From an uncultured Bdellovibrionales bacterium (GTDB lineage: Bacteria > Patescibacteriota > Minisyncoccia > Moranbacterales > DUUL01): DNA of 64,000 nt. Shown here piece by piece: positions 6,196 to 56,658 of this stretch (the first letter of the stretch is position 1; the number at the start of each line of letters is the position of its first letter). Below the pieces are notes generated by a model. That model was not told where the DNA came from and ran no database searches. It saw nothing but the letters and a program-made list of their open reading frames with translations. The stretch lies in assembly GCA_964346295.1 (NCBI GenBank), contig CAYFUG010000004.1, forward strand, positions 532 to 64,531. Reading direction: 5' to 3'. The translations under genes and the position numbers were made by a program.

Positions 6196-6239
6196 AATTA
6201 ATTTATAGATTATGCTTCTATATATTATAATTAATTTAT
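6196..6239 (+). promoter_or_regulatory. Pair of AATTAATTTAT direct repeats, 33 bp apart, just upstream of an AAA+ ATPase gene
   Basis: AATTAATTTAT at 6196-6206 and 6229-6239. The same 33-bp period is seen upstream of the two paralogous ATPase genes. Confidence 0.4.
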
Positions 6240-6257
6240 GGAGTTAATTTTAACAAA

Positions 6258-7505
6258 ATGGCTAATGATAAGGAATTCGGTAGATTTTTTAATTTAGAAA
6301 GACTTATTTCTACTGTTCCAGGTAAAATTCTGGTAATTCAGGGGCCTCGAGGAGCGGGCAAGACCCGAACTTTGAGGAAAATTGTTCGGGAATTAAGACT
6401 TGATTGTCACTGGGATTCTGGAGATAGTTTTAGATTACAGCAGCTATTCAGAGATCCGGAAGCAGCTAAGATTTTGCAGTATATCCAAAGCCGAGAGTGG
6501 TTAGTGGTAGAGGAAGCCCAGAAAATTCCCAATCTAAGAGAGGGGCTAGAAATTATAAGGAGGCATAAACTAAAACTAAAAATTATTCTGAGTAGTTCTT
6601 GGAGGCTAGATTTGGCTACTGCGCCTAAGGGCGAAGAGGAGCGGAGGACTTTTGGTCAAAATTTTTGGCAAGTAGATCAGCAGTTAGGATCAGAAGAAGA
6701 TCCTTGGGAGGAGCAAAAGACTATCATTGACTTGCTACCTCTTTCTCAGGCGGAACTTAACCAAAAATATACTCGGTTTCAACTGCGAGAATTGCTGCCT
6801 TGGTTTCTGATTTTTGGCACTTATCCTCAGGTGATAAGGGCGGCTAATAAGCCTCAAATTGAAGAATTTCTTGGGGAGTTAGTGTTTTCTCAGCTACTTC
6901 CAGAAGTGGTGATCCAGGGTAGAGTTAAGAAGCCAGAAAAACTCCTCCAGCTAAGCAAGCAAGTGGCTTTTCGGATAGGTGAGGAGCTTTCTCTTAACGA
7001 ACTTTCGGAATTGGTGGGGGTGGATGTTAAAACGATAGACCGCTACTTGGAATTGCTAGAAAAAGCCCTCATCATTAAGAAAATTTCACCTTTTAGTCGT
7101 AATTTGAAAAGAGAGATTGATTTTAAGGCTAAATATTATTTTTACGACACCGGAGTGCGCAATGCGCTAATTTCTCAATTTAATGAATTAGAAAATCGGA
7201 ATGATGGGGCGGCGTTATGGGAGAATTTTCTTGTGATGGAGAGAATTAAAATGTTTGAAATAAATCAAAAAAACGCCAGTTTTTATTTTTGGCGGACTTA
7301 CGATGGGCAGAGGGTAAATTGGATCGAGGAGACTAAAGAAAGACTGCGGGGAGGGGAATCTAAAGGTGAATTGCGAGGCTATCAATTTCAATGGAAGCAA
7401 ACTAACCGCAAGAGATCTAAAGCCCCTCAGGATTGGCTACGGACTTACCCAGTGACGAATCTTGAGATTATTAGGCCAAGTAACTATTTGGATTTTTTGA
7501 TTTAG
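6258..7505 (+). CDS. AAA+ ATPase of the AAA_14/DUF4143 type
   Basis: Walker A QGPRGAGKT. Overall architecture is shared with the ORFs at 7623 and 47103. Confidence 0.85.
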   Translation: MANDKEFGRFFNLERLISTVPGKILVIQGPRGAGKTRTLRKIVRELRLDCHWDSGDSFRLQQLFRDPEAAKILQYIQSREWLVVEEAQKIPNLREGLEIIRRHKLKLKIILSSSWRLDLATAPKGEEERRTFGQNFWQVDQQLGSEEDPWEEQKTIIDLLPLSQAELNQKYTRFQLRELLPWFLIFGTYPQVIRAANKPQIEEFLGELVFSQLLPEVVIQGRVKKPEKLLQLSKQVAFRIGEELSLNELSELVGVDVKTIDRYLELLEKALIIKKISPFSRNLKREIDFKAKYYFYDTGVRNALISQFNELENRNDGAALWENFLVMERIKMFEINQKNASFYFWRTYDGQRVNWIEETKERLRGGESKGELRGYQFQWKQTNRKRSKAPQDWLRTYPVTNLEIIRPSNYLDFLI

Positions 7506-7524: not shown

Positions 7525-7554
7525 AAAAACACCCCTAAAGCAGGGTGTTTTTTG
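7525..7554 (+). terminator. Intrinsic terminator
   Basis: AAAAACACCC-loop-GGGTGTTTTTT hairpin followed by a T-run. Confidence 0.7.
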
Positions 7555-7572
7555 AGCAAAGGGTTGACTTTT

Positions 7573-7632
7573 TGTAAATAAATGGTACCATGTTTAGACA
7601 TAAGATGTAAATAAATGGTACCATGTTTAGAC
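7573..7632 (+). repeat. 27-bp direct repeat x2 (period 33 bp) spanning the start codon of the AAA+ ATPase gene
   Basis: TGTAAATAAATGGTACCATGTTTAGAC at 7573-7599 and 7606-7632. The first copy yields a 6-codon mini-ORF, MFRHKM*. Confidence 0.8.
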
Positions 7633-8957
7633 GAAAAATCGAGAAAACTCTTTTAGAATGGAAAAATAGAGCAGAAAGGAAGCCTTTGATTTTAAGGGGT
7701 GCTCGCCAAGTAGGAAAAACTACTTTATTAGAGAGTTTTGCTCAAGAAAAATTTGCTGATTATCTGAAAATAAATTTTGATAATGGAGAAGATCTGAGGA
7801 ATTTTGAAAAAGTAGATAATTTAAAGGATTTTGAAGAAGTGGTTAAAGCCGTTTATCATAAACAGTTTAACAAAGACACTCTTGTTTTTATTGATGAAAT
7901 TCAAAATCTTCCTAATATAATCAAGCTTTTAAGGTTCTTTTGGGAAGACAGAAGAGAAATTCCAGTGGTAGCGGCGGGGTCGCTTTTGGAGGTAAAAATT
8001 AAACAAGAAGGCTTTTCTCTGCCGGTGGGAAGGGTAGAATTTGCCTATCTTTACCCCTTAAGCTTTTTTGAGTTTCTTGATGCCAGGGGAGAAGACCAAT
8101 TATTAGCCTATATTAAAGAGGCGAATTGGAAAAATCCTCTTGGTCAGACATTGCATCAAAAGTTAGAAGATTTTTTTCTGGAGTATGTTTTGTTGGGGGG
8201 TATGCCGGAGGTAGTAAAGACTTTTGTGAGGGAGGGTAGAGCAGATTTAGCAAGAATTTATCAGTCTTTGCTTCAAACTTATGCAGAAGATTTACATAAA
8301 TATTCCTCTCAATCCGAAGCTAAATACTTAAGATTTGTTTTCGATAATGCTCCTTTTTATGCTGGAAGTCTGGTTCATTATCAAAATTTTGCCCAGTCGG
8401 AATATCGCACTCGGGAGATGCAAGTAGCCTTCGAAGCCCTGCGGGATGCAATGCTCTTGGAAACCATTTTCTCTACCGGCTCTAAGCGCTTACCTTTAAC
8501 AGGTAAAAACAAGCGGCCTAAAAAGCTGCTTTTTCTAGATTCCGGGTTAGCAAGTTATAAAAGAGGTTTTGAAAGGAGTGACTTGAATTGGAACAGCTTA
8601 GATGATGCTTATAAAGGGGGAGTTTTTGAACAGACCATAGGTCAAAACCTCAAGTCTCTTTTTGCTAATGAGCAGAAAAAGCTTTTTTACTGGAGCAAAG
8701 AGAAGGCTCGGGGAGCAGCCGAGGTGGACTTCTGTTTCGAAAGTAGAGGCAAAATTGTGGGGCTGGAAGTTAAGGCGGGAGTGGCTACTCGAGCTCGTTC
8801 TTTGTTTAGTTTTGCTAGCCAAGTGGAAAATAGTGTGATTGTGAGAATTTATCCCGGACCACTTCGAAAAGAGCGAGTAAAACTAGGAGGAGATGAATTT
8901 TCTCTGGTTTCGCTCCCTTTTTACCTAATTGAAAGAGTTTTGGATTTTATAGATTAG
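7623..8957 (+). CDS. AAA+ ATPase of the AAA_14/DUF4143 type
   Basis: Walker A RGARQVGKTT, Walker B LVFIDEIQ, and a long C-terminal domain as in its paralogs. Confidence 0.9.
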   Translation: MFRRKIEKTLLEWKNRAERKPLILRGARQVGKTTLLESFAQEKFADYLKINFDNGEDLRNFEKVDNLKDFEEVVKAVYHKQFNKDTLVFIDEIQNLPNIIKLLRFFWEDRREIPVVAAGSLLEVKIKQEGFSLPVGRVEFAYLYPLSFFEFLDARGEDQLLAYIKEANWKNPLGQTLHQKLEDFFLEYVLLGGMPEVVKTFVREGRADLARIYQSLLQTYAEDLHKYSSQSEAKYLRFVFDNAPFYAGSLVHYQNFAQSEYRTREMQVAFEALRDAMLLETIFSTGSKRLPLTGKNKRPKKLLFLDSGLASYKRGFERSDLNWNSLDDAYKGGVFEQTIGQNLKSLFANEQKKLFYWSKEKARGAAEVDFCFESRGKIVGLEVKAGVATRARSLFSFASQVENSVIVRIYPGPLRKERVKLGGDEFSLVSLPFYLIERVLDFID

Positions 8958-9045: not shown

Positions 9046-9074
9046 TTGACATTTTTTTATAAATATGCTATTAT
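9046..9074 (+). promoter_or_regulatory. Module 1 promoter P1 (sigma70 consensus-like)
   Basis: TTGACA (9046-9051), 17-nt spacer, TATTAT (9069-9074) preceded by TGc. Followed by GTCCAGCTGAAATGG, which resembles the conserved start of the other module transcripts. Confidence 0.6.
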
Positions 9075-9127
9075 AGACCGTCCAGCTGAAATGGGGAGCA
9101 AAAACGGGGGCGAGTAGTGACACGATA

Positions 9128-9156
9128 TTGACAAGGTTTCAAAAATATGCTACACT
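9128..9156 (+). promoter_or_regulatory. Module 1 promoter P2
   Basis: TTGACA, 17-nt spacer, TGcTACACT. Followed by GTCAAGCTAAGAAAAGG (9162-9178), almost identical to 28912-28928 and 59154-59170. Confidence 0.7.
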
Positions 9157-9958
9157 GTATCGTCAAGCTAAGAAAAGGATTCAGGCGAGCACCTTAAAAG
9201 CACTATCATAAATTATTCTTTGAGGAGAGAGTAATCTATAAAAAGAGTTTAACAATTGGACCTTGAGGGCTAAAAAGATTTTTAAATTAGCTCCCTAGAA
9301 AGGTTGTTATTCAAATTAGATTACAAAGCGGATTTATTTCTCTCTCAAAGTTTTTTCATCGTTTTCTCATCGGCAAGAACGATGGGAACCGACAAGAGGT
9401 GGGAATGAATCCGTTTTTTATTGCTTTTGTGGCAAGCCCGATGGAGGAGAGAGTTAAAATCCAAAAGTTTCCGCGGTTACGAAGTCATAACTATTGAATC
9501 GCGAGAAAGTATTGGCCGTAGTTTTTTCTACACCTTCATCGGGCTTCTCGCAAAGTCGAGGAGCGATTCTCAGCGAAGAATCACTGAACCCAATTTAGAG
9601 CGTTTTAACAGCGCTCCTACAAAGAACCTTACAATCAGGAATTTCTAGAATTTATCTAAAAATTCCTAAAACAAATGTTTAAGCTTTGCTTTTGAAAAAC
9701 CTCCCCGCCGCTATTAACGCTTTGGCGGGGTGCTAAGCAAATCTAATTCTCACTCAGCCTTCAAGGCTGGCTCGGATTGATTTGTTGGCAGAGGAGAGAG
9801 GCTCTAGCAGAAAACTAGAGTTCCCGAGAGGAGAGAGCAAGGTCGAATCATGAACATTTCTTTTGTTTTAGCCGGTCTTTTATAAAGACGGGCGGACATC
9901 TGCCGGTAAGAAGTTTCAACGCAAATTTCTTGCTGGTGATGTCTCTCAACGGAGAGAC

Positions 9959-9977
9959 TGTTCTTTGAAAATCTTAG
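9959..9977 (+). promoter_or_regulatory. boxA-like antitermination motif (module 1)
   Basis: TGTTCTTTGAAAATCTTAG. The core TGTTCTTTGAAAA matches the Gram-positive rrn boxA consensus and the copies at 29130, 32104 and 59261. Confidence 0.55.
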
Positions 9978-10017
9978 TTACTGTTTAGTCTATTTTCTCC
10001 TTATTTTTAAGGTGAAA

Positions 10018-10110
10018 GGTGATTAGCTTCTTTAGGGTGGTTTGCCATTTGGTCATTGCAATTTGCAATTAGCAATTAGAAGGCAAGCCGCTGGAAAGGA
10101 GTTAATCACC
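10018..10110 (+). promoter_or_regulatory. Long imperfect hairpin following boxA (RNase III-like substrate)
   Basis: GGTGATTAGCTTCTTTAGGGTGGTTTGCC pairs with GGCAAGCCGCTGGAAAGGAGTTAATCACC. Pairs include G-U pairs. Confidence 0.55.
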
Positions 10111-10228
10111 AACAACCTTATTTCTAAATCCCGAAAAGGAAGGCAAAAGTAAAGGCCCGGTCCGCTTTGGGCGGATGGTCGGGAGCTACACTGACTTTTG
10201 CTGGAATTGGAGGGAGAAGGAGAGGATC

Positions 10229-12758: not shown

Positions 12759-12785
12759 TCTCTTATCCAGGGGGTGTTTTTTGAT
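12759..12785 (+). terminator. Terminator-like hairpin, likely 3' end of module 1
   Basis: ACATCTC-loop-GGGGGTGT stem with G-U pairs, followed by TTTTTT. Confidence 0.45.
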
Positions 12786-12858
12786 GGAAATTTTGATTAA
12801 TTGGAGTTTTTTGCTAAAATTCAAAAAAGATCTGAGAAATAAAAGGATAAAAAAAATT

Positions 12859-15192
12859 ATGGAAAAGGAAAATCAACAACCATTAGAAAAGGGTAAGCCT
12901 GAAGAAGTTAGGAGGAGCCCCGAAAGTCAAGCAGGGAATTTCTGGAAATGGGAAGATTTAGAATTAGGTGAATTAACCCTAAGAAGAGTAGCGGAATTGA
13001 AAGCACAGATTGAAGCAGAAGGGCGAAGAGAACAAGAAGGCCTGAATAAAGAGCAAAAAGAATACAACAGTCATCGATTAGTAGTTTTTGAGCCAGGAAG
13101 AAGCTCTGGAGAGTTAGTTACTAGAACTTTAGGGAAAGTTGGCCTTGTAAAAGAAAACCCTCAGGAGCTGAAGGTGGAGCCAGGGAAAGTTTACGATGTG
13201 ACAATTGTAGAAGAGGTTTCTGGGAAGGGAAAGGGAGGATTTTTTCAATTAAGAGTAGAAGAGGAAATTGATCCGGATCAAATCGATGACCGGACTTTGT
13301 TTCGCTATAATAACTTGGAAGTAAAAGAGGCGGCTGAAAATCCAAAAGGAACTAATTTGCGACAGCTGTCTTTTGAGCAGAGAAAGGGAAGATGGGGCGC
13401 AGTTTATCGAGATTACAAAGGATCTGATTTGGATGGGGTGGAGCGTACTGGGCCTCGCTTAGTTACTCTCAATGAAGAGAATTTTTCGGTTGGAGAGGTC
13501 AAAGAAGGAGAGGAGTATCTGGTAGTACTTGGAGAAACTGGCAGAGAAATACCCACTAGAAGAGGTGGAAAAATGGTTTTGCAAAAAGGAATGGTTCTGA
13601 AGCCGGCTCGAGAATGGCTAATGCAGCCTCGCTTTAATCGCTTGGGTGGAATCGAGTTGTATTTGCTGCGGGGAGTCAAAAAGGAGAGTCTTGTTCAGGT
13701 TGGCTCTCGGGAAGATATTGAAAAAAAGCTTCCAGTTGAGATCCCTTCTGAATACCGGGCCAAGTTAGAAGCAATGTTGAAAATAAAAGAGTGGGAAAAA
13801 GGGCAGAATCAAGAACGAGATAAAATAGCAGTGGAATTTATCAGAGGATTTCAAGAGGCTTGGGAGCAGGCGGAGGCGAGGTATTGTGAAGAAGAGGTGG
13901 AGCTAAAGGAAGTCAGTGAGGATTTTTGCCGGTTTGAGTGGGATAATCAGGATTATACTTTTGAGCCTTATCTTCCACCTTCGGAATTAGGAAGAGCGCC
14001 CGGCTTTTTTGTGAAAAAGGGTGATAAACCAGGAATTAAAAGCAGTGAAGATCCGGTGAGTGAGCATCCTTATTTTAAGGCTTGGGAGGAGCAGAGAGGG
14101 CAAGACCCGGATTATCTTTTAAAGACAGAAATTGTGCGGGCTTTAATGAAGTATTCTCAGGAAGATCCCTTAGAGATTGATTGGGGGGATAGCGGCATTT
14201 TCGATAGTTCTGCAATGCGAAATTTAGTAGGGGATATTAGATCTCAGGGGGCAGAGATGGATTTAGACTTGGATAACCAAGGGGCAGCAGTGGCTAGGGT
14301 TAGTAATGAGGAGGCTAAAGAGGTTTACTTAGGAAGCTCGGGATTAGGCCAAGGAAGATTGAAAGGCAGTTTGGTTTTTCGGTCAGCCTTAGTGGAACAA
14401 GGAGGGCGGTATTTTATTCGGTATGTGGTGGACCCGGAGAAGACTGAGTTAAAAGTAAATTCAAAGACACTTCACCTTAAATTGAAGGCAAGAATCAAAA
14501 CGGAAATTCTGGATCCGTTGATAGAAGAATTGTCTCAAGCAACCAAAGAGGGAGAGCAGTTGATCAAAATGGGCGGTCAAGAAGAAGAGGGGGAAGTAGC
14601 CAGAGGGGGTTCTGGGGAAACATTGGAGACCGATCAAGGAACCCCGGGAGCTTTTGATCCAGGTGAAATGGAAGGAGGAGGAGATCAAGAAAGCTTCTCA
14701 AAAGGATCCGCACCAAACAGTTATCGGGAGCTTAATCTAGGGGAATTATCAGATGATGAATATGGACGGGCAGGAGCCTGTGCAAATGAAGTATTGAATT
14801 ATGCTAAGTATGATCGGAACCTTTCTTTTAGTGTCGGGGAGGCAAATAGTACTAGAGATGAATTGACTCAACTGGTTGCTTTTGAGAGGCGATACAATCC
14901 GGAGGGCCCTATCGCTGAGGCTATTCAAGGGACTGAGCGCTTAACTGGTCAGGACTGTGCTGTTGTTTGGAGGATTTACAAAAGGGAAGAGATTAGCGCA
15001 ACTTCTGAAAATTCGGAGAGCGCCCAGGGGAGTCCAGAAGTAGCAGAGGAAGTCTTAGGGGAGCCTGTTCCCGCTCAAGGAGATACTCAACAAGCATCTC
15101 CTACGGCAGGCTCGTTGGCTGATTTAAAAGCGATGTTTGGAGGAGAGGGGTCCAAAAAGAAGAATAAAAAATCTTCCAAAAAGAAAAAATAA
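12859..15192 (+). CDS. Large acidic/Lys-tailed hypothetical protein
   Basis: Long ORF (track start 12781; alternative ATG at 12784). I favour ATG 12859 (MEKENQQ...). No SD and host-like composition. C-terminus is KKKNKKSSKKKK. Confidence 0.7.
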   Translation: MEKENQQPLEKGKPEEVRRSPESQAGNFWKWEDLELGELTLRRVAELKAQIEAEGRREQEGLNKEQKEYNSHRLVVFEPGRSSGELVTRTLGKVGLVKENPQELKVEPGKVYDVTIVEEVSGKGKGGFFQLRVEEEIDPDQIDDRTLFRYNNLEVKEAAENPKGTNLRQLSFEQRKGRWGAVYRDYKGSDLDGVERTGPRLVTLNEENFSVGEVKEGEEYLVVLGETGREIPTRRGGKMVLQKGMVLKPAREWLMQPRFNRLGGIELYLLRGVKKESLVQVGSREDIEKKLPVEIPSEYRAKLEAMLKIKEWEKGQNQERDKIAVEFIRGFQEAWEQAEARYCEEEVELKEVSEDFCRFEWDNQDYTFEPYLPPSELGRAPGFFVKKGDKPGIKSSEDPVSEHPYFKAWEEQRGQDPDYLLKTEIVRALMKYSQEDPLEIDWGDSGIFDSSAMRNLVGDIRSQGAEMDLDLDNQGAAVARVSNEEAKEVYLGSSGLGQGRLKGSLVFRSALVEQGGRYFIRYVVDPEKTELKVNSKTLHLKLKARIKTEILDPLIEELSQATKEGEQLIKMGGQEEEGEVARGGSGETLETDQGTPGAFDPGEMEGGGDQESFSKGSAPNSYRELNLGELSDDEYGRAGACANEVLNYAKYDRNLSFSVGEANSTRDELTQLVAFERRYNPEGPIAEAIQGTERLTGQDCAVVWRIYKREEISATSENSESAQGSPEVAEEVLGEPVPAQGDTQQASPTAGSLADLKAMFGGEGSKKKNKKSSKKKK

Positions 15193-15245
15193 AAATCCAA
15201 GAGGTAGATATATTAAAGAGAGATAAAAAGTGACTTTCAGAGTAG

Positions 15246-47017: not shown

Positions 47018-47098
47018 TGATAAAATTTCCAGGAAAAACAATCAGTGGAGTGATATAAATTCCTTGATTTTTTATCAGTGGAGTGATAAAATTTCCAG
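47018..47098 (+). repeat. 33-bp tandem repeat (about 2.5 units) immediately upstream of the AAA+ ATPase start
   Basis: GATAAAATTTCCAGG at 47018 and 47084. ATCAGTGGAGTGATA at 47040 and 47073. Confidence 0.8.
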
Positions 47099-47102
47099 GT
47101 AA

Positions 47103-48377
47103 ATGATTAATTCTAGAAAAATGATTTCAAGAGAAATTTATCCTAAGCTTTATAGTTGGGCGAAAAAGGGCAAGATTATTATTTTGAAGGGACCTCGTCA
47201 GGCGGGGAAAACGACCCTGATGAATTTTTTATTAGACAATCTTAAAAAAGAAGGTCAAAATACCGCTTATTTGTTGGCAGATGACATTGATAAGCAAGAG
47301 TTGTTTAAGTCTCCAGCCGCTCTGGAATTTTACTTGAGTCAGAAGTATAATTTTCCCGAAAAACATCTTTTTCTTTTTATTGATGAGTTTCAATACATTG
47401 ATCAGGCGGGACTCTTCATTAAAAACTTTTTTGATAAGCATCAGGGCCAGGTAAATTTAATTTTAAGTGGGTCTAGTTCCCTGGAAATCACTCAAAATCA
47501 AGAGTTTTTGACCGGTCGGGCGGTGGAGTTTGAAATGGGAACTGTTAATTTTCGAGAGTTTTTTAATTTTCGAGAAGGAACTCGGATTAAAAAATTTCCC
47601 CTTGAAAGCCAGGATGATTTAAGTAATTTTTATAAATCCTTTGAGAGTAAGCTAAGCCTCGCCTTAAAGAATTTTTTAGTTTTTGGGGGGTATCCTGAGG
47701 TGGTGGAAACCTCATTAGAGGAAGATAAGAAAGTAATTTTAAAGTCGATTGTTAAGAAATATTTAGAAAAGGATGTGGCGGGTTTTTTGCAAATCGAAAA
47801 TATCACTGCCTTTAACAACTTAACGAAGATTTTGGCTTCTCAAATTGGTAATTTAGTTAATATTAGCGAACTGGCTAATACGGTAAACTTATCCATTAAC
47901 ACCGTTAAAAGATATCTGGATGTTTTGCAAGGGACATATGTCTTTAGTCTGGTGCGACCATATGCTAAGAACATTCGCAAGGAGCTAAGCAAAATGCCTA
48001 AAGTTTATATTCAAGACTTGGGGGCAAAAAATTATCTTTTAGGTGATTACAAAGACAATTTATTTGGTGGCAAGGAAGTGGAAAATTTTGTTTTTTTAGG
48101 GATGGCTAATAATTTAAGTTCAGAAGGAGTTAACTTCTATCGAACCAAGGGAGGCTCAGAGGTCGATTTTATTTTAGAAAAAGAGGGTGGCTTGAATTTG
48201 ATAGAAGTTAAATATCGGTCGGTTTCCAAGATCAAAGAGCCTCTGGCATTCGCCAATTTTTCGGAAAATTATGGAGACAGAGTTCAAAACAAGATTGTGA
48301 TTTCCAAAGATGTTTTAAAAAAAGATGGGAATATTTACTTTATTCCGGCGGTGCTTTGGCCCTGGATAGAGTTATAG
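47103..48377 (+). CDS. AAA+ ATPase of the AAA_14/DUF4143 type
   Basis: Walker A KGPRQAGKTT, Walker B LFIDEFQ. Paralog of the ORFs at 6258 and 7623. Confidence 0.9.
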   Translation: MINSRKMISREIYPKLYSWAKKGKIIILKGPRQAGKTTLMNFLLDNLKKEGQNTAYLLADDIDKQELFKSPAALEFYLSQKYNFPEKHLFLFIDEFQYIDQAGLFIKNFFDKHQGQVNLILSGSSSLEITQNQEFLTGRAVEFEMGTVNFREFFNFREGTRIKKFPLESQDDLSNFYKSFESKLSLALKNFLVFGGYPEVVETSLEEDKKVILKSIVKKYLEKDVAGFLQIENITAFNNLTKILASQIGNLVNISELANTVNLSINTVKRYLDVLQGTYVFSLVRPYAKNIRKELSKMPKVYIQDLGAKNYLLGDYKDNLFGGKEVENFVFLGMANNLSSEGVNFYRTKGGSEVDFILEKEGGLNLIEVKYRSVSKIKEPLAFANFSENYGDRVQNKIVISKDVLKKDGNIYFIPAVLWPWIEL

Positions 48378-55944: not shown

Positions 55945-56360
55945 AAACTAAAATACTACAATTCCTAGTCGCTTGGTCTAGCTTTGTCTAGATCAAGAGG
56001 AAAGTCTGGACACCAGCCGGCTTTCAATTGGAAGCCAGTTAAAAGGGTAATCGGTAACGCCGATCGGGCTCGATGTGAGTCGAGTCAAGGGATAGCGCCG
56101 CAGAGACAATACTAGTTAATGCTCTGCATTAACGAAAGGTGAAAAGTGTCGAGGGGCTCATTTCTTCGGAATTTGAGCTACTCGACTCGGCTATTGGCGA
56201 CAATAGTTTGTGGCAAGCCCTACCCGGTGCAAGGCCGTGTCTTCTCGTAAAAGAGAGGAAGTGCCGCTAAAGTTCAGCAGTGATGTTGAATGTAGATAAA
56301 TGACTAGGCCAATTTACTTTGGTAGATTGGTACAGAATCCGGCTTATTTTATCTAGTTTT
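55945..56360 (+). ncRNA. rnpB: RNase P RNA (bacterial type A-like)
   Basis: GAGGAAAGTCTGG (55997-56009) and ACAGAATCCGGCTTA (56332-56346) form the universal P4 strands. P1 pairing is AAACTAAAATA / TATTTTATCTAGTTT. GC-rich relative to its surroundings. Confidence 0.85.
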
Positions 56361-56658
56361 CAGTTAGTAGTTTTCAGTTTTTAGGCCGCATGGAGGCAGC
56401 GCAGGTTATAGAAGCGAGTCCTTTGTAAAAATCTCGAGCGTTGTTTACAGCTTTCTTTATTAGTAGAACACCTCTATTTTTCTTCATGAGGCATTTTGTC
56501 TCCTATATAAGGCAATAAACGCCGTCATTAAAACTGGAGCGGTTTGAAATTGAAATTTAAAAATGTAAACAACGCTAAGGAATCTTACAAGTTATTTCTT
56601 ATCTTGAATTTTCTGGTGTAGTATATGCTGAGCTAAGATAGAAAATAAAATCAAAAGA

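What the first reader, a model, noticed from the sequence alone, without database searches (positions are those of the whole stretch)
7573..7632. All three DUF4143-type AAA+ ATPase genes are preceded by gene-specific direct repeats with an identical 33-bp period
- Gene 7623 has the 27-bp repeat TGTAAATAAATGGTACCATGTTTAGAC at 7573 and 7606. The second copy contains the start codon. The first creates a mini-ORF, MFRHKM*.
- Gene 47103 has about 2.5 tandem 33-bp units (47018-47098), with ATCAGTGGAGTGATA at 47040 and 47073 and GATAAAATTTCCAGG at 47018 and 47084.
- Gene 6258 has AATTAATTTAT at 6196 and 6229.

The repeat sequences differ between genes, but the spacing is 33 bp in every case, about three helical turns. 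This suggests cognate, paralog-specific operator pairs that could autoregulate through the C-terminal winged-helix-like domain typical of this family. Alternatively they may be footprints of a common duplication mechanism at the 5' ends.
Basis: partly seen in the sequence, partly recalled or inferred. Interest (0 to 1): 0.6.

Follow-up and report, generated by a model that had tools for sequence, protein, structure and literature searches.

The report
Phased repeat arrays before DUF4143 genes
Each of three ATPase-nuclease genes from a very common but uncharacterised candidate phage-defence family is preceded by its own short DNA motif repeated every 33 bases; this feature is conserved across the family in many phyla and most likely marks where the protein binds to control its own gene.

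Summary
In the window, the only tandem direct repeats with a period of 28 bp or more are the three period-33 arrays. They sit immediately 5' of the only three AAA_14+DUF4143 genes (PADLOC candidate defence family PDC-S01).

The pattern holds across the family in three independent collections:
- **Genomes:** 65 of 79 relatives have a best upstream repeat period of 33 or 66 bp. All 52 strong repeats do, against none in seven control regions.
- **Metagenomes:** 29 of 79.
- **Viral contigs:** 30 of 51.

Arrays have 2-6 same-strand units. Each unit is a conserved core of about 20 bp plus a diverged linker of about 12 bp. Cores differ between paralogs and clades but are conserved in orthologs at 41-67% protein identity. 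Arrays overlap promoter-like hexamers. A minor subfamily uses a 22-23 bp period.

The modelled protein has a STAND/ORC-like ATPase module followed by the DUF4143 region, which carries HTH-like sequence and a PD-(D/E)xK motif.

Best reading: helically phased cognate binding sites through which the protein regulates, probably represses, its own gene. Binding itself is untested. I found no prior description.

The parts
7564..7569 (+). -35-like hexamer TTGACT just upstream of unit 1 of the 7623 array. With a 16-nt spacer it pairs with TACCAT (7586-7591, preceded by TG) inside unit 1.
   Evidence: Promoter scan. TTGAC is invariant in the alignment with orthologs L161 and L162. This is a consensus-level prediction only.
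7573..7605 (+). Unit 1 of the 7623 array. The core is TGTAAATAAATGGTACCATGTTTAGAC (7573-7599) and the linker is ATAAGA. The core is an imperfect dyad centred on GGTACC.
   Evidence: The core is conserved in L161 (67% protein identity) and L162 (51%), while the linker is diverged.
7606..7638 (+). Unit 2 of the 7623 array. It has the identical 27-bp core (7606-7632), which embeds the start codon ATG at 7623.
   Evidence: In L162 the equivalent cores lie at -82 and -49, and the start codon falls 32 nt after the second core's ATG, in phase.
7623..8957 (+). AAA_14 + DUF4143 ATPase-nuclease gene (444 aa), PADLOC PDC-S01 type PDLC04788. Walker A, Walker B (DEIQ) and PD-(D/E)xK (EVDF...EVK) motifs are intact.
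6196..6209 (+). First direct half-site of the 6258 array, AATTAATTTATAGA.
   Evidence: It aligns with the AATTTATGGAtT half-site of orthologs L163, L164 and L169.
6216..6228 (-). Inferred inverted half-site (TTCTATATATTAT on the + strand) between the two direct half-sites.
   Evidence: It aligns with ATCCATAAATTTT in L163/L164/L169, which is the reverse complement of the direct half-site. In the window it is degenerate, so this part is an inference.
6229..6242 (+). Second direct half-site, AATTAATTTATGGA, 33 bp after the first and 16 nt before the ATG at 6258.
   Evidence: In orthologs this half-site lies in the 17-nt spacer of a TTGACn-17-(-10) promoter-like element.
6258..7505 (+). AAA_14 + DUF4143 gene (415 aa), PDC-S01 type PDLC04789. 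It is a degenerate paralog: Walker B is EE instead of DE, the nuclease D is N, ExK is QFQ, and it is about 40 aa longer than its 374-aa relatives.
7525..7552 (.). GC-rich hairpin followed by a T-run. It is terminator-like and separates the 6258 gene from the 7623 array, so each gene looks like its own transcription unit.
   Evidence: Terminator scan; sequence.
47018..47050 (+). Unit 1 of the 47103 array (TGATAAAATTTCCAGGAAAAACAATCAGTGGAG).
47051..47083 (+). Unit 2 of the 47103 array (TGATATAAATTCCTTGATTTTTTATCAGTGGAG). It contains the -35-like TTGATT (47064-47069). Its TTGATTTTTTATCA core is shared with orthologs L084 and L085.
47084..47116 (+). Unit 3, partial (TGATAAAATTTCCAGG...). It contains an extended -10-like TGaTAAAAT (47085-47092) and the first in-frame ATG at 47103.
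47103..48377 (+). AAA_14 + DUF4143 gene, PDC-S01 type PDLC04789. The real start is probably the ATG at 47121 (418 aa), because homologs are 418-421 aa and align from there.

Best explanation
**What is shown**
Each DUF4143 ATPase gene carries an array of 2-6 copies of a gene-specific DNA motif of about 20 bp immediately upstream. The copies are on the same strand and spaced 33 bp start-to-start. That is three turns at about 11 bp per turn. A minor subfamily uses 22-23 bp, or two turns. This anatomy, its specificity to the gene and its conservation across the family are shown here.

**What is inferred**
- The motifs are cognate binding sites for the protein encoded downstream.
- The protein reads them with the HTH-like segment that lies between its ATPase and its C-terminal PD-(D/E)xK motif.
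- The fixed phasing puts neighbouring bound protomers, or dimers on dyad-symmetric cores, on roughly the same DNA face. They can then contact each other through the oligomerising ATPase module.
- The last units overlap the -35, spacer, -10, transcription start or start codon. Occupancy would therefore shut down the gene's own promoter (autorepression).
- This would keep a potentially toxic ATP-dependent nuclease at a low, self-limited level, and would let the gene carry its own control when transferred horizontally.
For: **Window**
- The three period-33 arrays are the only long-period tandem repeats in 64 kb. They sit at the only three DUF4143 genes.
- Each core is unique to its own gene.

**Family-wide**
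- In 79 genome loci from many phyla, the best upstream repeat period is 32-34 in 48 and 65-67 in 17.
- All 52 repeats with score >=15 fall in these classes, against none in seven control regions.
- Aggregate 6-mer autocorrelation at lag 33 is 105x the median, with harmonics at 66 and 99. Controls are flat.
- The pattern is replicated in metagenome loci of the other subfamily (29/79; 11 of 16 strong) and in viral contigs (30/51; 11 of 11 strong).

**Selection on the sites**
- Cores and spacing are conserved between orthologs at 41-67% protein identity from different lineages, while linkers diverge without indels.
- Arrays are always on the gene's strand and upstream.
- The period classes of 33 and 22-23 bp are both multiples of about 11 bp.

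**Promoter overlap**
- 7623 type: a conserved TTGAC lies 3-12 nt before unit 1.
- 6258 type: one half-site lies inside a TTGACn-17-(-10) spacer in three orthologs.
- 47103 type: TTGATT-17-TGaTAAAAT spans units 2-3.

**Protein**
- The confident model has a STAND/ORC-like ATPase module.
- The central region gives weak hits to HTH_24, HTH_11 and HTH_5. PF08279 (HTH_11) is recorded for several relatives.
- Motif distance correlates with distance in the central segment after controlling for the ATPase domain (partial r 0.24, permutation p about 5e-4). The reverse does not hold (0.03, not significant).
Against: - There is no direct evidence of binding or of any effect on transcription.
- Promoters are consensus matches in AT-rich DNA, and no transcription start is mapped.
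- Many family members show no detectable array: 14/79 in set 1, over half of set 2, and the Segatella copri and Ruminococcus albus plasmid copies.
- To my knowledge, the winged helix of STAND NTPases usually serves oligomerisation rather than DNA reading.
- The 7623 protein's own central region gave no HTH hit.
- The Mantel result is modest. It is confounded by shared descent and by different evolutionary rates of the domains, and the nuclease domain also correlates.
- At 10.5 bp per turn, 33 bp is 3.14 turns, so the sites are not strictly on one face.
- Whole-unit gain and loss by itself propagates the period.
Confidence: 0.6

Rival explanations
1. The sites are bound by the gene's own protein, but their main role is not transcription control. 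The array would be a nucleation or assembly platform that sets the pitch of an ATPase-nuclease oligomer on self DNA. This could be a parked, inactive store of the nuclease, a licensing site, or a cis target of the nuclease. Any repression would be a by-product.
For: - Arrays of up to 6 units extend more than 200 bp upstream, more than simple occlusion of one promoter needs.
- The fold resembles oligomerising STAND and ORC/Cdc6 ATPases.
- The nuclease-domain distance also correlates with motif distance.
- The strict phasing suggests a higher-order complex.
Against: - Many arrays have only two units that sit right on the promoter-like hexamers.
- Nothing indicates cleavage or rearrangement at the arrays.
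- The degenerate 6258 paralog, which lacks nuclease and Walker B residues, keeps its sites. This fits a regulatory role at least as well.
Confidence: 0.2
2. The repeats are read by something other than the ATPase. They could be tandem promoters, RNA-polymerase or sigma-factor elements, or sites for a host regulator.
For: - Several cores contain -35-like TTGAC or TTGAT. In some loci one 33-bp unit can be read as -35 + 17 + -10 + 4. I read this by eye in L085 and L066.
- Promoter-like hits are enriched around the arrays.
Against: - The same period and related cores occur in phyla with different promoter types, including Bacteroidota. From general knowledge, Bacteroidota use -33/-7 promoters. The repeated TTTG would be about 25 nt from the next unit's -7-like box, not the usual 19-21.
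- The -35-like position of the core is variable: TGAC, TAAC, TTAC or TCAC.
- Cores differ between three paralogs within one genome. A shared host factor does not explain this.
- Motif divergence tracks the encoded protein.
Confidence: 0.08
3. The array acts as RNA. It would be a repeated element in the 5' leader that pairs, for example the self-complementary AUGGUACCAU of units 1 and 2, to sequester the start codon.
For: Folding the 7623 and 6258 regions as RNA gives z-scores of -4.7 and -4.5. The 7623 stem covers the start-codon region.
Against: - The stability comes from the dyad symmetry of the cores. The common Bacteroidota-type cores are not self-complementary.
- In the 6258 type the hairpin-forming half-sites overlap or precede the -35-like hexamer, so they would not be transcribed from it.
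- The half-sites show mismatches without compensatory changes.
- There is no Rfam match.
- The 47103 region scores z -1.5.
Confidence: 0.04
4. The repeats are neutral footprints of tandem duplication or slippage at the 5' ends, with the period simply inherited.
For: Whole-unit copy-number differences between near-identical relatives: 3 versus 4 units at 90-97% protein identity, including one exact duplicate unit.
Against: - Cores stay conserved and linkers diverge, yet spacing is held at 33 (rarely 32 or 34) across orthologs and phyla.
- Neutral DNA at this divergence would lose both the sequence and the register.
- No comparable repeats occur at other genes.
Confidence: 0.03
5. The arrays are end sequences of a mobile element, such as multiple transposase-binding sites, or a recombination or replication-origin site.
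For: - Genes occur singly between housekeeping genes and on plasmids and viral contigs, and they move between phyla.
- From general knowledge, iterons at origins are phased at about 22 bp.
Against: - No consistent inverted or direct copy of the core lies at the 3' side of the gene.
- No transposase, integrase or Rep gene accompanies the gene in the contexts listed.
- Three copies lie within 64 kb of one chromosome, which argues against origins.
Confidence: 0.03

Closest known systems
Iterons and autoregulatory operator arrays of plasmid Rep proteins (general knowledge, not tested here)
   Same: - Several direct repeats of about 20 bp, phased by whole helical turns.
- Located next to the gene of the protein presumed to bind them.
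- Specificity co-diverges with the protein.
- Units are gained and lost whole.
   Different: - The protein is an AAA+/STAND-like ATPase fused to a PD-(D/E)xK nuclease, not a Rep.
- Several independent copies occur per chromosome.
- The dominant period is 33 bp rather than 22 bp.
- No sign of an origin was looked for or seen.
Controller (C) proteins and C-boxes of restriction-modification systems (general knowledge)
   Same: - A horizontally mobile nuclease-encoding unit carries its own operators in front of its own regulator.
- The operators have dyad symmetry and overlap the promoter, giving self-limiting expression.
   Different: - Here regulator, ATPase and nuclease are one polypeptide.
- There are up to six phased units rather than two adjacent palindromes.
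- There is no methyltransferase partner.
MalT and other STAND-type transcription factors binding repeated boxes (general knowledge)
   Same: A STAND-like nucleotide-binding oligomerisation module combined with recognition of several repeated asymmetric sites, which suggests nucleotide-dependent cooperative binding.
   Different: - MalT uses a separate LuxR-type HTH and a sensor domain, and it activates other operons.
- Here the only visible target is the gene's own upstream region, and the effector is a nuclease domain.
Archaeal Orc1/Cdc6 with origin recognition boxes next to the cdc6 gene (general knowledge; fold match)
   Same: - An AAA+ protein with a winged helix.
- Several cognate repeats lie directly upstream of its own gene.
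   Different: - The repeats are direct and evenly phased, rather than inverted around an unwinding element.
- The genes are multi-copy in bacteria.
ParR-parC type centromeres upstream of par operons (general knowledge)
   Same: Tandem direct repeats immediately upstream of an operon that also serve as the operator for autoregulation.
   Different: There is no partition ATPase and adaptor pair. This is a single chromosomal gene with different protein folds.
PADLOC PDC-S01 (COG1373, AAA_14 + DUF4143)
   Same: All three window proteins match PDC-S01 models very strongly (E 1e-80 to 1e-136).
   Different: - PDC-S01 is defined only as a protein family and an untested defence candidate (10.1101/2024.01.29.577857; PMC12988326).
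- In none of the papers retrieved did the titles, abstracts or passages I read describe an upstream array.

Membership tests
AAA_14 + DUF4143 ATPase (COG1373; PADLOC PDC-S01) | Pfam AAA_14 and DUF4143 hits above gathering score | tested here: met
   All three proteins pass. AAA_14 scores are 40.8, 96.1 and 94.0 bits against a cut-off of 27. DUF4143 scores are 99.7, 68.6 and 122 bits against a cut-off of 28.1.
AAA_14 + DUF4143 ATPase (COG1373; PADLOC PDC-S01) | Match to PADLOC PDC-S01 profile HMMs | tested here: met
   E 1.8e-136 (7623), 9.1e-80 (47103) and 1e-95 (6258).
AAA_14 + DUF4143 ATPase (COG1373; PADLOC PDC-S01) | Intact Walker A, Walker B and PD-(D/E)xK catalytic residues | tested here: inconclusive
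   They are intact in the 7623 and 47103 proteins (GxxxxGKT, DE, EVDF...EVK). The 6258 protein has EE for DE, N for D and QFQ for EVK.
AAA_14 + DUF4143 ATPase (COG1373; PADLOC PDC-S01) | Anti-phage activity | not testable with these tools
   PDC-S01 is an untested candidate (10.1101/2024.01.29.577857). One representative, tested in E. coli B against T4, T5 and T7, was not among the four positives (10.1101/2024.09.26.614923).
Autoregulatory operator / iteron-like binding-site array | Repeated, phased motif adjacent to the gene of the presumed binding protein and specific to it | tested here: met
Autoregulatory operator / iteron-like binding-site array | Purifying selection on sites and on spacing across orthologs | tested here: met
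   Alignments A4 and A5. Period statistics come from three collections.
Autoregulatory operator / iteron-like binding-site array | Overlap with the functional promoter | tested here: inconclusive
   Sites overlap conserved -35/-10-like hexamers, but no transcription start is mapped.
Autoregulatory operator / iteron-like binding-site array | Sequence-specific binding by the gene product and an effect on its own transcription | not testable with these tools
   Only indirect evidence exists: weak HTH-like hits and a partial Mantel correlation with the central segment.
Transposon or mobile-element terminal repeats | Matching sites at the other end of the element | tested here: not met
   Core searches over whole loci found copies essentially only upstream and on the gene strand.
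Structured cis-regulatory RNA | Match to a curated RNA family, or conserved pairing with compensatory changes, within the transcript | tested here: not met
   There is no Rfam hit. Pairing derives from dyad symmetry only. Mismatches are not compensated, and the sites overlap or precede the -35-like hexamer.
CRISPR array | Repeats of 23-47 nt separated by unique spacers of similar length, usually with cas genes | tested here: not met
   Units have a core of about 20 nt plus a linker of about 12 nt, with 2-6 copies. Linkers are related to one another within arrays.
Orc1/Cdc6 replication initiator with ORB sites | The protein is an Orc1/Cdc6 ortholog | tested here: not met
   [not shown]

The most novel reading that the evidence does not exclude
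DUF4143/PDC-S01 proteins would be a very large family of sequence-programmable, ATP-dependent DNA-reading nucleases.
- Each paralog recognises its own motif of about 20 bp.
- The 33-bp (or 22-23 bp) array in front of each gene is the template on which the STAND/ORC-like ATPase polymerises with a fixed pitch.
- The gene's own promoter therefore doubles as the assembly or parking site that holds the nuclease in check until a trigger, such as infection or foreign DNA carrying similar sites, releases or redirects it.

This would give a mechanism for one of the commonest uncharacterised candidate defence genes. It would also provide a natural set of orthogonal protein-operator pairs.
Probability: 0.2. 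Interest if true: 0.85.

Novelty: new variant of a known kind. Interest (0 to 1): 0.68.

Why it matters
PDC-S01 (COG1373) is reported as the fourth most common defence candidate across prokaryotes, with tens of thousands of copies (PMC12988326). It has no known mechanism, and its one reported phage test was not among the positives.

A conserved, gene-specific and strictly phased DNA array in front of these genes gives the family its first concrete molecular handle. It offers:
- a predicted DNA ligand for every paralog;
- a predicted regulatory logic;
- a geometric constraint of about 11 bp x 2 or 3 on the nucleoprotein complex.

The question 'what do these ATPase-nucleases do' becomes directly testable by EMSA, DAP-seq, reporters and cryo-EM.

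It also has two practical consequences:
- Heterologous defence assays may fail or mislead if the native upstream array is omitted or retained unknowingly.
- The family could supply many mutually orthogonal operator-regulator pairs.

Tried and rejected
- **Rfam:** a search of the window and seven array-bearing loci found nothing at the arrays.
- **Solved structures:** a sequence search of the PDB found no relative.
- **Viral contigs:** a scan with the single 47103 protein found nothing.
- **Literature:** the search for 'AAA_14' returned only noise because underscores are ignored. Searches for DUF4143, COG1373, PF13635 and PDC-S01 turned up no description of the repeats in what I read.
- **Mini-ORF MFRHKM*:** rejected as functional because it is absent from the closest ortholog.
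- **Transposon ends:** rejected because there are no sites at the 3' side.
- **'Each unit is a promoter', which could explain 33 as 6+17+6+4:** considered because some units read that way. It is not favoured: the period holds in Bacteroidota, the -35-like position of the core varies, and paralogs in one genome differ.
- **RNA pairing:** considered because of strong z-scores. It is explained by dyad symmetry and is not general.
- **Second paralog in L164:** it showed only a weak 32-33 bp pair.
- **Plasmid copies in Segatella copri DSM 18205 and Ruminococcus albus 7:** no clear array was found, so the feature is frequent but not universal.
Full report
**1. The observation**

Reading the sequence and two independent repeat finders confirm all three claims.
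- **Gene 7623.** The 27-mer TGTAAATAAATGGTACCATGTTTAGAC occurs at 7573 and 7606. 30 of 33 positions of the full unit are identical, and the second copy holds the ATG at 7623.
- **Gene 47103.** Three units start at 47018, 47051 and 47084.
- **Gene 6258.** AATTAATTTAT occurs at 6196 and 6229, inside 33-nt units that are 25/33 identical.

All three genes are AAA_14 + DUF4143 by Pfam. A tblastn search shows they are the only such genes in the window, and they are only 20-25% identical to one another.

The repeats are far beyond chance.
- In a scan of every period from 20 to 120, the only full-unit repeats with a period of 28 or more are the two at 7573 and 6176.
- The largest direct-repeat families within 120 bp are D1, D3 and D4, which are these three arrays, plus one unrelated promoter pair, D2.
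- Among 43 gene-upstream regions of the window, no unrelated gene has a comparable period 33/66 repeat.
- None of the cores recurs outside its own gene's upstream region in the window.

**2. It is a family trait, not a local curiosity**

*Genome collection.* A scan with the alignment of the three paralogs returned 80 loci with 7623-type relatives at 32-48% identity. They come from Bacteroidota, Spirochaetota, Desulfobacterota, Legionellales, Dependentiae, Cloacimonadota, Chlamydiota and others.
- In the region from -200 to +45 of 79 of them, the best direct repeat has period 32-34 in 48 and 65-67 in 17.
- All 52 repeats with score >=15 fall in these two classes.
- Seven control regions (inside the gene, further upstream, downstream) gave none.
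- Pooled 6-mer autocorrelation peaks at lag 33 (105x the median), 66 (58x) and 99 (18x), and is flat in controls.

*Metagenome collection.* A scan with an alignment of 47103/6258-type proteins gave 80 more loci at 21-51% identity.
- 29 of 79 have a best period of 32-34. Chance would give about 3%.
- 11 of the 16 strong repeats do.
- Lag 33 is 21x the median.

*Viral contigs.* 30 of 51 non-redundant upstream regions have a best period of 33 or 66, as do all 11 strong repeats.

*Limits.* The trait is frequent but not universal. The plasmid copy in Glaesserella parasuis has three units and the copy in Bacteroides fragilis has a 66-bp pair. The copies in Segatella copri DSM 18205 and Ruminococcus albus 7 show no clear array.

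*A second period class.* A distinct, partly GC-rich subset has three units at 22-23 bp instead (L101, L107, L109, L112, L116). The periods seen are therefore about 2 x 11 and 3 x 11 bp.

**3. Anatomy**

- Arrays have 2 (13 loci), 3 (25), 4 (10), 5 (3) or 6 (1) units.
- Units lie almost always on the gene's strand and upstream of it. There is no consistent copy at the 3' side.
- A unit is a conserved core of about 20 bp plus a linker of about 12 bp that varies.
- Cores differ between clades. Examples are ACCCTGACTTTGTTACA, TAGGTTTGATTTTCGACCAAA, ATCATGGTGGATTTTTAACCA, TTTCCATCCGAAAAGTGT and CTGCCAAATGTCGGT.
- Many 7623-type cores fit a loose pattern, ACC..(2-4)..TTT..(2-3)..ACA. The window core TACCATGTTTAGACA also fits it.

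**4. Conservation in orthologs of the three window genes**

*7623 type.* L161 (67% protein identity) and L162 (51%) keep TTGAC followed by two TGTAA(A)TAA(A)nTGGTACCATG cores exactly 33 bp apart. The linkers have diverged.
- In L161, unit 1 has no ATG, so the mini-ORF is incidental.
- In L162 the cores lie at -82 and -49, and the real start codon follows the second core's ATG by 32 nt.
- The start codon's position inside the last unit in the window is therefore a variant of a conserved register.

*6258 type.* L163, L164 and L169 (41-44% identity; L169 is from a Nitrospirota genome) share three half-sites with the window:
- AATTTATGGAtT (direct);
- its reverse complement ATCCATAAATT;
- AATTTATGGATT (direct).

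The two direct half-sites are 33 bp apart. The last one lies in the 17-nt spacer of a TTGACn-17-(-10) promoter-like element that ends 6-9 nt before the ATG.

*47103 type.* L084 and L085 carry two TTGATTTTTTAT(C/G)-type cores 33 bp apart, like unit 2 of the window. L083 has a pair of a different motif at the same spacing.

*Meaning.* Non-coding DNA that keeps both sequence and register at this protein divergence, while the intervening linkers change without indels, is under selection. Arrays also change by whole units between close relatives: 3 versus 4 units at 90% and 97% protein identity.

**5. The protein**

- The AlphaFold model of the 7623 protein is confident (pLDDT 90.6).
- Next come STAND NTPases (plant resistosomes, CED-4, Avs5, Avs3) and ORC/Cdc6.
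- The Pfam DUF4143 model covers the central segment and the C-terminal part.
  - The central segment gives weak hits to HTH_24, HTH_11 and HTH_5 in the 47103 and 6258 proteins, but none in the 7623 protein.
  - PF08279 (HTH_11) is recorded for several relatives.
- The C-terminus carries the D...ExK signature. DUF4143 is classed in the PD-(D/E)XK superfamily (PMC3424549).
- All three proteins match PADLOC PDC-S01.
  - PDC-S01 is an untested 'guilt-by-embedding' defence candidate (10.1101/2024.01.29.577857).
  - It is said to be the fourth most common defence candidate in prokaryotes (PMC12988326).
  - The one representative tested in E. coli was not among the systems that protected (10.1101/2024.09.26.614923).

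**6. Mechanism**

*Shown here:*
- gene-specific, phased, conserved arrays;
- overlap with conserved promoter-like hexamers;
- dyad symmetry in several cores, namely GGTACC-centred in the 7623 type and direct-inverted half-sites in the 6258 type.

*Inferred:*
- The encoded protein binds its own array through its HTH-like segment.
- Neighbouring units interact through the ATPase module.
- Occupancy represses the promoter.

- Three paralogs in one genome have three unrelated cores.
- Gene and array travel together across phyla.
- In 52 loci, motif distance correlates with distance in the central segment (residues 228-310) after controlling for the ATPase domain (partial r 0.24, permutation p about 5e-4). 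The converse is null at 0.03.
- This last test is modest and is confounded by descent and by rate differences. The nuclease domain also correlates.

*Rivals:*
- The array may be an assembly or parking platform rather than, or in addition to, an operator. I cannot separate this from autoregulation.
- Tandem promoters or a host factor are disfavoured by cross-phylum conservation, the variable -35-like position of the core, and paralog specificity.
- An RNA element is disfavoured. The strong folding z-scores arise from dyad symmetry, are not general, lack compensatory changes, and involve sites that overlap or precede the -35-like hexamer.
- Neutral duplication footprints are disfavoured by the core/linker contrast.
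- Mobile-element ends are disfavoured because no far-end sites exist.

**7. Comparison with what is known, and novelty**

It works like iterons or operator arrays of self-regulated DNA-binding proteins. Other parallels are C-protein/C-box control of restriction genes, MalT-type STAND regulators on repeated boxes, and Orc1/Cdc6 with ORB sites next to its gene. These comparisons rest on general knowledge plus the fold match. The protein is a member of none of those families.

The protein family itself is known. In the papers retrieved for DUF4143, COG1373, PF13635 and PDC-S01, no title, abstract or passage I read describes the arrays, and Rfam has nothing there. I therefore rate this a new variant of a known kind of element. 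It applies to a very large and functionally unexplained family.

**8. Verdict**

- The key missing evidence is experimental: binding, reporters and transcription starts.
- Interest is 0.68.

Noticed in passing
window 9046-9169, and 9170-10170: Two strong sigma-70-like promoter matches lie 82 bp apart: TTGACA-17-TATTAT and TTGACA-17-TACACT, both with an upstream TG. About 1 kb follows with no ORF of 100 aa or more and no credible Rfam match. This could be an unannotated non-coding RNA or a leader.
   Followed up: partly
window 6258-7505: The 6258 paralog looks degenerate. Walker B is EE instead of DE, the nuclease D is N, and ExK is QFQ. It is about 40 aa longer than its 374-aa relatives, yet it keeps its upstream half-sites. 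It may be a regulator-only or decaying copy.
   Followed up: partly
window 7623 and 47103: Start-codon issues. The public gene call for the 7623 gene is 423 aa, starting 21 codons late (P0001). The 47103 ORF probably starts at the ATG at 47121, because homologs are 418-421 aa.
   Followed up: yes
L101, L107, L109, L112, L116, L132 (upstream of the DUF4143 gene): A subset of family members has arrays with a 22-23 bp period instead of 33, typically three units, for example CGGCAGATCGTCA or CTGCCAAATGTCGGT.
   Followed up: partly
L182/L184 vs L185; L188 vs L190: Close relatives (90-97% protein identity) differ by exactly one 33-bp unit, 3 versus 4 units. This includes a perfect unit duplication in L190. 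Arrays expand and contract in whole units.
   Followed up: yes
window 55953-56363: Bacterial class A RNase P RNA on the + strand, 144.6 bits.
   Followed up: no
window 1-64000: ARAGORN found no tRNA gene in the whole 64-kb window.
   Followed up: no
window 15151-15197: An A-rich 24-nt tandem repeat (2 copies, 86-87% identical) lies at the 3' end of ORF 12781-15192.
   Followed up: no
L164 1-1000: Two DUF4143 genes are arranged divergently with a 676-bp intergenic region. The second paralog has only a weak 32-33 bp pair of a different motif.
   Followed up: partly
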